The notes under the pieces were generated by a model. That model saw nothing but the letters and a program-made list of their open reading frames with translations, did not search any database and was not told the DNA's origin. A DNA stretch of 31,321 nucleotides from a virus (taxonomy: Duplodnaviria; Heunggongvirae; Uroviricota; Caudoviricetes). A program made the position numbers and the translations under genes. Location: IMG/VR virus record IMGVR_UViG_2700989487_000010. The stretch is one strand, 5' to 3'. Of this stretch, positions 23,360 through 24,462 are shown in pieces. How positions within the stretch are numbered: position 1 is the first letter of the stretch; each line of letters opens with the position of its first letter.

Positions 23360-23405
23360 GTAAATTAGATGCATTAGCTCAGTCATGAGTTTACTGATTA
23401 CGTAC

Positions 23406-23440
23406 GGCACAGAAGCAGACCTGATAGTTTGCTCTGTGCC
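23406..23440. terminator. Hairpin between convergent D and the DUF2971-like gene
   Basis: ggcacaga...tctgtgcc inverted repeat in the 122-bp gap between the two stop codons. Confidence 0.4.
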
Positions 23441-23481
23441 AGAAACGGACATTGCCGACATCATAATCGACACAAATTACA

Positions 23482-24267
23482 TCAATCACCTATGTGATTA
23501 CGTTCTATATATCTTACAATCTTCTCTAAAGATTCAAATCCCCACCTCTGCATAGCATGTGGGGATTCTGTATATTCATAATCTTCTATGGTGAGATCCC
23601 ATGTACTTTTCTTGAATTCACACTGATATAATCGCACAGTCTTGTTTAAAACCAACCCTTCTAACACACTGCTTTTCTTAATGATTTTGTCAATGTCTTT
23701 ATTGTTAATCCCAATGTAGATAGCTGTTACCGAACTTAAATCAGTTATCTTGTCAATTAAAATATTCTCTTGCTTTTGTAATAGCCCCACTCGCTTTATT
23801 ATTCTAACTTCTTCTTCATATTTCCAATGCAATGATTTAGTAAGCAATAATTTACTAATTACATCAGCGCTATAAATGTTTTCTTGACTGATTTTTAGTT
23901 TGCTTTTTATTCGACTCTCTAAATAATTAATGTCACCTTTCTGTGCCGTAATTAGGCATTTTTCTTCATCATCAAACCCTGCCCTTTCTGTGTCAATTGC
24001 TACAACAAACCCCTGATGTTTATCAGCATAATGTGACCACATCAGTACATTGAGAGGATTTTTAGAAAGGCATAAGCAGGCAACATTTTGATTGATCTCC
24101 CCCCTCATAGCTAATGGTTCAAGCGATTCACCATCTAATGAAAGTTCATAGCCATAGCTTTCAAAAGGATCATTAAACTCACTATATGGAGTGAATTTTA
24201 TAGAGATGTAACCATCTTTAAAAAATCGTTCCAATGATGTCTTATCTATATATTTATACAGAATCAT
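23482..24267 (-). CDS. DUF2971-family protein of unknown function (AT-rich accessory gene); candidate defence or superinfection-exclusion factor
   Basis: Minus-strand ORF, open from TTG 24318, first ATG at 24267 (MILYKY...). Carries DUF2971-type motifs as recalled: LYKY near the N-terminus, FNDPFES, MWSHYADKHQGF, WKYEEEVR. Codon usage is visibly AT-rich (Ile/Lys/Asn-rich) against the GC-rich phage background. Confidence 0.7.
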   Translation of the reverse strand: MILYKYIDKTSLERFFKDGYISIKFTPYSEFNDPFESYGYELSLDGESLEPLAMRGEINQNVACLCLSKNPLNVLMWSHYADKHQGFVVAIDTERAGFDDEEKCLITAQKGDINYLESRIKSKLKISQENIYSADVISKLLLTKSLHWKYEEEVRIIKRVGLLQKQENILIDKITDLSSVTAIYIGINNKDIDKIIKKSSVLEGLVLNKTVRLYQCEFKKSTWDLTIEDYEYTESPHAMQRWGFESLEKIVRYIERNHIGD

Positions 24268-24462
24268 AATATATTCAGAATTAATTATAGGTGTTATCAG
24301 TATACAGTACTTCAACAAGTAGATGTAAAGATCCCATTTAAACGTTCCTCCTCAATGCGCGGATTAAACAAATTAAAGCATCTTACTCAAAATGGACCAT
24401 CAGTTGGATTTAGAGCCAACACAACCTAGAATAGCGGCAGCACCACGTTAAGGGAGGTCGCT

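What the first reader, a model, noticed from the sequence alone, without database searches (positions are those of the whole stretch)
23360..24462. AT-rich DUF2971-like gene inserted between tail gene D and ogr
In P2 the D and ogr genes are neighbours. Here they are separated by about 1.1 kb carrying one minus-strand gene of sharply different, AT-rich composition. It has its own promoter region divergent from ogr and a hairpin at its 3' end. The product has DUF2971-type motifs (LYKY, FNDPFE, MWSHYADKHQGF, WKYEEEVR) and no known function. A compositionally foreign single gene at a conserved junction in a prophage is the typical signature of a lysogenic-conversion or anti-phage cargo gene. I know of no characterised defence role for this family, so this is the strongest candidate for an undescribed system in the window.
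Basis: partly seen in the sequence, partly recalled or inferred. Interest (0 to 1): 0.75.

Follow-up and report, generated by a model that had tools for sequence, protein, structure and literature searches.

The report
DUF2971 cargo gene in prophage hotspot
A foreign, AT-rich single gene sits between tail gene D and ogr of a P2-like E. coli prophage; it encodes a predicted ADP-ribosyltransferase-like protein of the DUF2971 family, which already has one experimentally validated anti-phage member, so it is a probable defence gene but not a new kind of system.

Summary
A 1,103-bp insert with 35% GC, against about 53% in the flanks, separates gene D (Phage_GPD) from ogr (Ogr_Delta). It carries one minus-strand gene, 23482-24267, encoding 261 aa rather than 262. 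The product matches Pfam DUF2971, five PADLOC PDC-S31 candidate models (best E 5.8e-27) and PHROG 1762.

Related P88-like phages have D and ogr 42 bp apart. Other E. coli prophages carry different single AT-rich genes at the same site: PIN_12, DUF3800, a weak HEPN-like match, GmrSD-annotated, YecA-annotated and unknowns. All share conserved boundary motifs, so this is a cassette hotspot.

Aristaios, a lactococcal DUF2971 protein, is a validated single-gene abortive-infection system. Verdict: new member of a known kind. Target and trigger remain unknown.

The parts
22118..23359 (+). Left conserved flank: tail gene D (baseplate hub). The start codon is uncertain; annotated homologues start later.
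   Evidence: Pfam Phage_GPD E 4.2e-17. 95-98% identical to D of P88-like phages.
23360..23382 (.). Left cassette boundary: GTAAATTAGA (one copy of the ~9-bp direct repeat AAnTTAGA) followed by TGCATTAGCTCAG. The motif is shared by eight of nine cargo alleles and absent from the empty site.
   Evidence: Flank comparison of 10 alleles.
23406..23440 (-). Hairpin 42 nt downstream of the stop codon: about 11 bp with one bulge and no U-tract. It may act as a transcript-end or stabilising structure. It also lies 46 nt after the D stop on the other strand.
   Evidence: strand folding MFE -33.4 kcal/mol, z -2.5. Not called as an intrinsic terminator.
23482..24267 (-). DUF2971 / PDC-S31-family gene, 261 aa. 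It encodes a predicted ADP-ribosyltransferase-fold protein and is the cargo.
24268..24403 (-). AT-rich leader and putative promoter region of the cargo gene. It has a TATAAT at 24289-24284. About 75 nt are conserved at nucleotide level with the Serratia and Enterobacter homologue loci. A non-conserved 18-codon uORF with a strong Shine-Dalgarno (GAGGAGG) starts at 24336.
   Evidence: Sequence. Alignment A3. The promoter scan was not above chance.
24404..24432 (+). Right cassette boundary, which is the probable ogr promoter: -35 TTGGAT (24404-24409), 17-nt spacer, -10 TAGAAT (24427-24432). The motif (C/T)(A/T)GTTGGAnT is conserved in all nine cargo alleles.
   Evidence: Flank comparison. The geometry matches the annotated P2 ogr promoter.
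24463..24723 (+). Right conserved flank: ogr late-gene activator.
   Evidence: Pfam Ogr_Delta E 5.1e-14. RefSeq annotation in identical prophages.

Best explanation
The insert is a one-gene accessory cassette in a variable hotspot of a P88-like (Xuanwuvirus, P2-like) prophage. The hotspot lies between the stop codon of tail gene D and the ogr promoter.

The cargo belongs to the DUF2971 family (PADLOC candidate PDC-S31, the family of the lactococcal Aristaios system). It most likely acts as a self-contained abortive-infection-type defence that the prophage provides to its lysogen against other phages.

The protein has a divergent ADP-ribosyltransferase fold. Its nearest solved relatives are the nucleic-acid-modifying enzymes DarT and Tpt1.

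Proposed mechanism (inferred):
- The protein is made at a low level from its own AT-rich promoter, which is plausibly H-NS-dampened.
- It stays inactive until an unknown signal of infection appears.
- It then uses NAD+ to ADP-ribosylate DNA or RNA, or less likely a protein of the transcription machinery. This blocks phage gene expression and growth of the infected cell.

Shown here: cargo status, hotspot, family membership, fold resemblance, conserved candidate catalytic residues, absence of a partner gene, and purifying selection.

Inferred: defence function, enzymatic activity, substrate, trigger and regulation.
For: Cargo and hotspot:
- The junction is empty (42 bp) in P88-type phages and in most of the E. 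coli prophages sampled.
- Elsewhere it holds different single AT-rich genes in either orientation: PIN_12, DUF3800, a weak HEPN RiboL-PSP match, GmrSD-annotated, YecA-annotated, unknowns and IS600.
- These alleles share boundary motifs.

Family:
- Pfam DUF2971, all five PADLOC PDC-S31 models and PHROG 1762 match.
- Aristaios, a 316-aa DUF2971 protein, is a validated single-gene Abi-like system that affects phage transcription.

Fold:
- AF2 pLDDT is 90.9 and pTM 0.86.
- Most of the remaining top 30 are ART-fold proteins.
- This agrees with two independent published assignments.

Active-site conservation over 92 homologues down to about 25% identity (true numbering):
- Invariant: N32-D33-P34, W77, H79, Y80, K144, W148, E151-x-E153-x-R155.
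- Near-invariant: Y4-K5-Y6 on strand 1.
- E-x-E sits at the start of a beta-strand, as published for motif III of this family.

Mobility without a partner:
- A 78% homologue lies between primase and chromosome in a Serratia P4-like satellite.
- A 76% copy lies on IncF plasmids beside tyrosine recombinases.
- A 45% copy sits on a phage-plasmid-like contig. About 43% copies are on many 106-117-kb non-mobilizable Enterobacter and Salmonella plasmids, and phage SSU5 carries a distant copy.
- Others lie in chromosomal islets, and the neighbouring genes are unrelated.

Selection: dN/dS is 0.16-0.18, and every homologue stays at 32-34% GC.
Against: - No experiment exists for this protein or any enterobacterial DUF2971. 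PDC-S31 is only a candidate, and I found no paper that tests it.
- The link to Aristaios rests on the shared Pfam family. Its sequence could not be obtained for direct comparison.
- Motif I (His or Arg) of classical ARTs is not evident.
- An ART toxin without an antitoxin needs an unexplained self-restraint mechanism.
- Most other cargos at this site do not match PADLOC models, so the hotspot is not proven to be defence-specific.
- Promoter evidence is weak.
Confidence: 0.55

Rival explanations
1. The enzyme serves the phage itself, in host takeover or counter-defence. This would resemble T4 Alt/ModA/ModB, which ADP-ribosylate host RNA polymerase and other proteins (from general knowledge). 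On this reading it acts during lytic growth or just after infection, and does not protect the lysogen.
For: It has an ART-like fold and is carried by temperate phages and an SSU5 phage-plasmid. It lies next to the late regulator ogr.
Against: It is transcribed opposite to D and ogr from its own AT-rich region. It is absent from most relatives of this phage. Close homologues also sit on conjugative plasmids, in a P4-like satellite and in chromosomal islets, where a phage takeover role makes no sense. The validated family member is host-protective.
Confidence: 0.1
2. It is selfish or neutral cargo. It could be a silenced, H-NS-repressed hitch-hiker, or a toxin-type addiction gene that merely stabilises the elements carrying it, with no anti-phage benefit.
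For: It is very AT-rich and rare, found in 16 of 5,426 genomes. It sits on many kinds of mobile element. A hok-type killer gene lies only 450 bp downstream, showing that this prophage end collects such genes. Promoter signals are weak.
Against: dN/dS of 0.16-0.18 and invariant catalytic-type residues show selection on protein function. No antitoxin-like partner is present in the five homologue contexts examined, as an addiction module would need. The gene is annotated as an intact CDS in the 16 chromosomal copies; the only unannotated copy lies on a frameshift-ridden duplicate contig.
Confidence: 0.15
3. The protein is not an ADP-ribosyltransferase. It would be another kind of effector that uses the conserved acidic residues differently, for example a nuclease or a nucleotide- or RNA-modifying enzyme such as a Tpt1-like 2'-phosphotransferase. 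It could still act in defence.
Confidence: 0.12
4. It is a lysogenic-conversion or virulence effector aimed at eukaryotic cells or competing bacteria. This has been suggested for about 18% of DUF2971 proteins in a Legionella-centred survey.
For: PMC12522546 predicts some DUF2971 members to be secreted effectors. ART toxins are common virulence factors.
Against: No secretion system or delivery domain is adjacent. The gene sits alone between D and ogr. The surrounding contexts are phage, satellite and plasmid hotspots. No signal-peptide analysis was run here.
Confidence: 0.03

Closest known systems
Aristaios (Lactococcus plasmid pUCCL641_199; Grafakou et al. 2024, PMC11381338)
   Different: The host phylum differs, and the carrier is a plasmid rather than a P2-like prophage. 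Direct sequence similarity was not measured here. Aristaios has a demonstrated Abi-like phenotype and an effect on phage transcription; this protein has no experimental data.
PADLOC-DB candidate PDC-S31
   Same: The protein matches all five PDC-S31 HMMs (best E 5.8e-27) and has a single-gene architecture.
   Different: PDC-S31 is a bioinformatic candidate. I found no publication that names or tests it.
DarT of the DarTG toxin-antitoxin defence system
   Different: No sequence-level similarity is detectable. No DarG macrodomain antitoxin or any other conserved neighbour is present. Large helical insertions are present, and the motif is E-x-E-x-R.
Known P2-like prophage accessory hotspots (old/tin at gpA-gpQ, Z/fun in the tail genes; Rousset 2022, Vassallo 2022, Moura de Sousa 2026, iLund4u preprint)
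   Same: A short locus between two conserved phage genes shows high turnover of AT-rich cargo that includes defence genes. DUF2971 genes also occur in the gpA-gpQ hotspot.
   Different: This site, between the D stop and the ogr promoter in P88-like phages, is not one of the two classical hotspots. The nearest published descriptions are 'a third hotspot between a tail protein and CI' and minor hotspots near int/att. Neither names D-ogr.
CmdTAC (PD-T4-9), an ART-based defence found in P2 hotspots
   Same: It has an ART-like toxin domain (CmdT), and the system is listed among those recovered from P2-like phage hotspots.
   Different: CmdTAC is a three-gene toxin-antitoxin-chaperone system, whereas this is a single gene with no partner. 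No homology between the two was tested.

Membership tests
Pfam DUF2971 (PF11185) | Match to the family HMM above the gathering score | tested here: met
   44.5 bits against a cut-off of 22, E 4.2e-11, full profile 1-89. All 92 aligned homologues also match.
PADLOC PDC-S31 (defence candidate) | Match to the PDC-S31 protein HMMs, single-gene system | tested here: met
   All five models are hit, with E from 5.8e-27 to 1.1e-06. No conserved neighbour is present.
PADLOC PDC-S31 (defence candidate) | Demonstrated anti-phage activity | not testable with these tools
   No paper in the library names PDC-S31.
Aristaios | Stand-alone DUF2971 protein with a predicted ART-like fold | tested here: met
.
Aristaios | Direct sequence similarity to pUCCL641_199 | not tested
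The link is only through the shared Pfam family.
Aristaios | Abortive-infection phenotype; interference with phage transcription | not testable with these tools
   This is reported for Aristaios only.
DarT / DarTG | Sequence membership in the DarT family | tested here: not met
   The profile search against PDB sequences, which include DarT entries, found nothing even at E up to 10. No Pfam ART family was hit by any of the 92 members.
DarT / DarTG | ART fold similar to DarT | tested here: met
DarT / DarTG | Adjacent macrodomain antitoxin (DarG) | tested here: not met
   The neighbours are gene D and ogr. No macrodomain is present in the five homologue contexts.
ADP-ribosyltransferase superfamily | Conserved catalytic Glu (motif III) at the start of a beta-strand, and an aromatic or Ser motif II | tested here: inconclusive
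   E151-x-E153 and Y80 are invariant, and E153 begins strand 154-160 of the model, numbered +1. No residue-level superposition on a solved ART could be made. Motif I was not identified.
ADP-ribosyltransferase superfamily | NAD+-dependent ADP-ribosyl transfer | not testable with these tools
   A biochemical assay is needed.
Prophage accessory (defence) hotspot | Fixed position between conserved core genes, with unrelated cargo in related phages | tested here: met
   There are an empty allele and at least nine cargo alleles with shared boundaries.
Prophage accessory (defence) hotspot | Cargo enriched in known defence systems | tested here: inconclusive
   A GmrSD-annotated gene and PIN_12 and HEPN-like domains are suggestive. 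Only DUF2971 gives strong PADLOC hits.

The most novel reading that the evidence does not exclude
DUF2971 proteins could be a very large, essentially unstudied class of antitoxin-free, self-regulated nucleic-acid ADP-ribosyltransferases. The family has about 41,000 clusters at 50% identity. Each protein would both sense infection and execute abortive infection.

Separately, the D-stop/ogr-promoter junction of P88-like prophages could be an uncatalogued cassette hotspot. It has a 9-bp direct repeat and decayed inverted-repeat ends. Its other cargos mostly lack strong PADLOC matches and could be further new single-gene defences. They are PIN_12, DUF3800, a weak HEPN-like match, YecA-annotated and several unknowns.
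Probability: 0.3. Interest if true: 0.65.

Novelty: new member of a known kind. Interest (0 to 1): 0.4.

Why it matters
The DUF2971 family is enormous: 41,157 clusters at 50% identity with E at most 1e-3. It is widespread on phages, satellites and plasmids. Only one member has been tested, in Lactococcus, and its substrate, trigger and self-restraint mechanism are unknown.

An E. coli member in a native P2-like prophage, with compact and defined regulatory flanks, would be a tractable model for those questions.

The D-ogr cassette site also gives a short list of further single-gene candidates. It offers a clean natural experiment with isogenic prophages that differ only in cargo.

None of this changes current concepts. 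It extends a known pattern of defence morons in P2 hotspots to another site and another host.

Tried and rejected
- Sequence link to solved structures: the profile of 92 homologues against all PDB sequences gave no hit, even at E up to 10.
- The AFDB libraries were unavailable.
- Pfam scan of all 92 members at E up to 10 for DarT, AbiGi or other ART families found only DUF2971.
- NCBIfam gave no family.
- Longer family members (455-621 aa) were scanned for informative fused domains, and none was found.
- A conserved partner or antitoxin was sought. Upstream ORFs in the Klebsiella and Enterobacter loci are unrelated to each other and carry no Pfam domain. This idea was rejected.
- The 18-codon uORF with a strong Shine-Dalgarno upstream of the gene is not conserved as an ORF in the homologous leaders. 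I treat it as incidental.
- Transposon-like terminal inverted repeats of the cassette are significant only in the GmrSD and YecA alleles. They are not significant in this window (p about 0.5). They are kept only as a consensus-level observation.
- Rfam found no family anywhere in the window.
- The extra copy on a 25-kb 'extrachromosomal' record of strain E110019 is a frameshift-ridden duplicate contig, not a separate element.
- Literature: 'PDC-S31' returned no paper. The supplements of PMC13586616 are not held. The H-NS preprint could not be opened. The Aristaios sequence could not be retrieved.

Full report
**1. What is in the sequence**

The window is the right-hand two thirds of a P2-like prophage plus adjoining chromosome.
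- It runs from portal and terminase at 648-3445, through head, lysis, baseplate and tail-fibre genes.
- The FI-FII-E-T-U tail operon lies on the minus strand (16507-22092).
- Gene D follows on the plus strand (22118-23359), then ogr (24463-24723).
- Next come a hok-type gene, a com-methyltransferase pair and the chromosomal gene flk.
- The closest phages are P88-like (Xuanwuvirus and Gemsvirus, Peduoviridae), at 91-98% identity in the D and ogr flanks.

Between the D stop and the ogr ATG lie 1,103 bp of 35% GC, against 52-58% in the flanking tail genes. One minus-strand gene occupies 23482-24267.
- The mechanical ORF extends to a TTG at 24318.
- Homologues and RefSeq use the ATG at 24267 (MILYKY...), which gives 261 aa.
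- My alignments and the structure model carry one extra leading residue, so residue numbers below are corrected to the true protein.
- A stable hairpin lies at 23406-23440, downstream of the stop. It has no U-tract.

**2. The junction is a cassette hotspot**

In P2 itself D and ogr are 81 bp apart, and the ogr promoter is annotated in that gap. In P88-type phages the gap is 42 bp.

The full insert of this window occurs in 16 of 5,426 complete E. coli genomes, at 97.6% identity or more and always in the same prophage context.

A search with both flanks finds the junction in about 1,240 genomes.
- In an evenly spaced sample of 60 records, 44 places join both flanks.
- Thirty-one of these are empty, spanning 789-840 bp.
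- Thirteen carry an insert.

The inserts inspected are all single genes, in either orientation:
- DUF3800, 389 aa.
- PIN_12, 356 aa.
- A 340-aa protein with a weak HEPN RiboL-PSP match.
- Unknowns of 221 and 132 aa.
- A GmrSD-annotated protein of 527 aa.
- A YecA-annotated protein of 379 aa.
- A 384-aa unknown.
- IS600.

All are AT-rich, with GC 0.33-0.42.

The boundaries are shared between alleles.
- Eight of the nine cargo alleles begin with ...AACTTAGA-TGCATTAGCTCAG...
- All nine end with (C/T)(A/T)GTTGGAnT...ACAACTTAGAAT.
- The empty allele has a single GCAACTTAGAAT.

The cassette is therefore bracketed by a direct repeat of about 9 bp. The right boundary supplies TTGGAT-17 nt-TAGAAT (24404-24432). 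This has the same geometry relative to the ogr ATG as the annotated P2 ogr promoter. The cargo thus sits precisely between the D stop and the ogr promoter and need not disturb either gene.

At consensus level the inner boundary motifs are inverted repeats: ATTAGCTCAGAC against GTCTGAGCTAGT. This is statistically visible only in two alleles and not in this window.

**3. What the protein is**

It matches Pfam DUF2971 (44.5 bits, cut-off 22), PHROG 1762 of unknown function (E 3e-57) and all five PADLOC PDC-S31 models (best E 5.8e-27). NCBIfam gives nothing.

The family is huge.
- A profile search finds 41,157 clusters at 50% identity with E at most 1e-3.
- Almost all are stand-alone proteins of 240-330 aa.
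- The few longer members have no recognisable extra domain.

Across 92 homologues down to about 25% identity the following residues are conserved:
- Invariant: N32-D33-P34, L75, W77, H79, Y80, G86, K144, W148, E151, E153, R155 and G186.
- Near-invariant: Y4-K5-Y6, F31, F35, M76, H84, Y115 and Y150.

AlphaFold2 with this alignment gives a confident model, with pLDDT 90.9 and pTM 0.86. Only the last 30 or so residues are uncertain.

- Yeast Tpt1: 5.7.
- E. coli DarT1: 5.5.
- An Rhs ART toxin: 5.3.
- A Salmonella NAD-binding effector: 4.9.
- Scabin, PARPs and pertussis- or cholera-type toxins fill most of the top 30.

The relationship is remote.
- HMMER against PDB sequences found nothing.
- Pfam scans of all members found only DUF2971.
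- Foldseek against PDB and BFVD found nothing significant.

Two publications reached the same ART assignment independently.
- One places DUF2971 in a modified H-Y-E clade near DarT and AbiGi. It reports a strictly conserved Tyr in motif II and an E-x-E motif III (PMC12522546).
- That description fits the invariant Y80 and E151-x-E153 seen here.
- In the model E153 opens a beta-strand.

I could not superpose residues on a solved ART, so the active-site mapping is inference.

**4. Evidence for function**

Context is the main evidence.
- The 78%-identical Serratia homologue lies alone between the primase of a P4-like satellite and chromosomal genes. That position is listed as a minor P4 defence hotspot in PMC13586616.
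- A 76% copy is on IncF plasmids next to two tyrosine recombinases.
- A 45% copy lies on a phage-plasmid-like contig with ParA, DnaB and a tail-fibre gene.
- Copies at about 43% identity are on many 106-117-kb non-mobilizable Enterobacter and Salmonella plasmids.
- Phage SSU5 and Vibrio 'PE' elements carry more distant relatives.
- Klebsiella and Enterobacter copies lie in small chromosomal islets. One sits beside umuDC, SRAP and an AAA_15/AAA_21 ATPase.
- Neighbouring genes differ in every case, and the upstream ORFs are unrelated. The gene therefore travels and presumably works alone.
- It is under purifying selection (dN/dS 0.16-0.18) and stays at 32-34% GC whatever the host.
- A different DUF2971 gene is listed 18 times among the P2 gpA-gpQ hotspot arrangements in a supplementary file of Rousset et al..

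Aristaios is the one experimentally tested family member.
- It is a 316-aa DUF2971 protein from a lactococcal plasmid.
- It is a single-gene Abi-like anti-phage system with an ART-like predicted fold (PMC11381338).
- It was later reported to interfere with phage transcription. Its trigger and mechanism are marked unknown (PMC13064643).

**5. Most likely mechanism**

Shown here: a mobile, selected, partner-less cargo gene of the DUF2971/PDC-S31 family in a prophage cassette hotspot. It has an ART-like fold nearest to nucleic-acid ARTs and invariant candidate catalytic residues.

Inferred:
- It is expressed from its own AT-rich promoter in the lysogen. The best candidate -10 is TATAAT at 24289-24284.
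- H-NS damping is plausible for such DNA. I could see only the abstract of the relevant preprint.
- The protein is held inactive until infection by another phage.
- It then ADP-ribosylates DNA or RNA using NAD+, stalling phage gene expression in an abortive-infection manner.
- Because it lies antisense to D-to-ogr transcription, the prophage's own late transcription might dampen it during induction. This is speculation.

Confidence in the overall explanation is about 0.55. Cargo and family status are near-certain. A defence role is at about 0.65, and ART chemistry on nucleic acid at about 0.4.

**6. Rivals**

- A phage-serving ART for host takeover or counter-defence (0.10).
- Selfish, silent or addiction cargo (0.15).
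- Not an ART but another effector type (0.12).
- A virulence effector (0.03).

Evidence and refutation tests for each are given in the structured fields.

**7. Comparison with what is known, and novelty**

The gene passes the membership tests for Pfam DUF2971 and PADLOC PDC-S31. It shares every computable feature of Aristaios, although direct sequence similarity was not measured.

It is not a DarT family member.
- There is no sequence similarity and no DarG.
- It may still work like DarT.

The classical P2 hotspots are gpA-gpQ and Z/fun. The nearest published descriptions of this site are a 'third hotspot between a tail protein and CI' and minor hotspots near int/att. I found no paper that names the D-ogr junction or its boundary motifs, but my literature access is partial.

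Verdict: new member of a known kind, of moderate interest (0.4). The value lies in offering a tractable E. coli model for a very large, mechanistically unknown family. It also yields a list of co-located single-gene candidates.

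Noticed in passing
window 23360-23382 and 24401-24432; loci L001, L002, L014-L016, L019-L021: All cargo alleles at the D-ogr junction share boundary motifs and a ~9-bp direct repeat (CAACTTAGA), of which the empty allele has one copy. Consensus inner ends (ATTAGCTCAGAC / GTCTGAGCTAGT) are inverted repeats, which suggests an ancestral insertion footprint or recombination handles. The inverted symmetry is significant only in the GmrSD and YecA alleles.
   Followed up: partly
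L014, L015, L016, L001, L002, L019, L020, L021 (D-ogr junction of other E. coli prophages): The alternative single-gene cargos are DUF3800 (389 aa), PIN_12 (356 aa), a weak HEPN RiboL-PSP-like protein (340 aa), a GmrSD-annotated protein (527 aa), a YecA-annotated protein (379 aa), and unknowns of 384, 221 and 132 aa. Most have no PADLOC match or only a weak one. They are candidate undescribed single-gene systems.
   Followed up: partly
L005 (Serratia sp. PAMC26656, CP150486.1) 6001-6804: A 78%-identical DUF2971 gene sits between the primase of a P4-like satellite and the chromosome. A recent study reports that P2 and P4 almost never exchange defence genes, so a closely related gene in helper-type and satellite-type elements is notable.
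   Followed up: partly
window 24336-24283 (minus strand): An 18-codon upstream ORF (MGSLHLLVEVLYTDNTYN*) with a strong Shine-Dalgarno (GAGGAGG) ends 13 nt before the DUF2971 start codon, which has no Shine-Dalgarno of its own. The ORF is not conserved in homologous leaders, although about 75 nt of leader is conserved at nucleotide level.
   Followed up: partly
window 14011-16478: This looks like an invertible tail-fibre segment. Two Caudo_TAP tail-fibre assembly genes lie in opposite orientation (14011-14538 +, 14567-15100 -). A 112-aa fragment (15103-15441 -) and a Resolvase/HTH_7 DNA invertase (15861-16478) follow, at the position of the P2 Z/fun hotspot.
   Followed up: partly
window 16507-23359: The FI-FII-E-T-U tail operon is on the minus strand and gene D on the plus strand, so they diverge from about 22092-22118. 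In P2 they form one co-directional operon. This arrangement is shared by the P88-like phages.
   Followed up: no
window 24915-25055: A hok/gef-family toxin gene (46 aa) lies just downstream of ogr and is conserved in the related prophages. Rfam found no sok-like or other RNA family in the window.
   Followed up: partly
window 25296-26238: A Mu Com-like zinc-ribbon gene overlaps the start of an N6/N4 DNA methyltransferase gene at the very end of the prophage, just before chromosomal flk at 26468. Some related prophages integrated next to ihfA-pheT lack this pair, so it is another variable module.
   Followed up: no
window 114-545 (minus strand): A 143-aa ORF with no Pfam match lies next to the portal gene, at the position of the classical gpA-gpQ (old/tin) hotspot. 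The window starts inside that hotspot.
   Followed up: no
L017 (NZ_CP035755.1, E. coli E110019 'extrachromosomal', 25 kb linear): This record duplicates the prophage end plus chromosomal flk and carries many frameshifts. It looks like an assembly artefact rather than a plasmid.
   Followed up: yes
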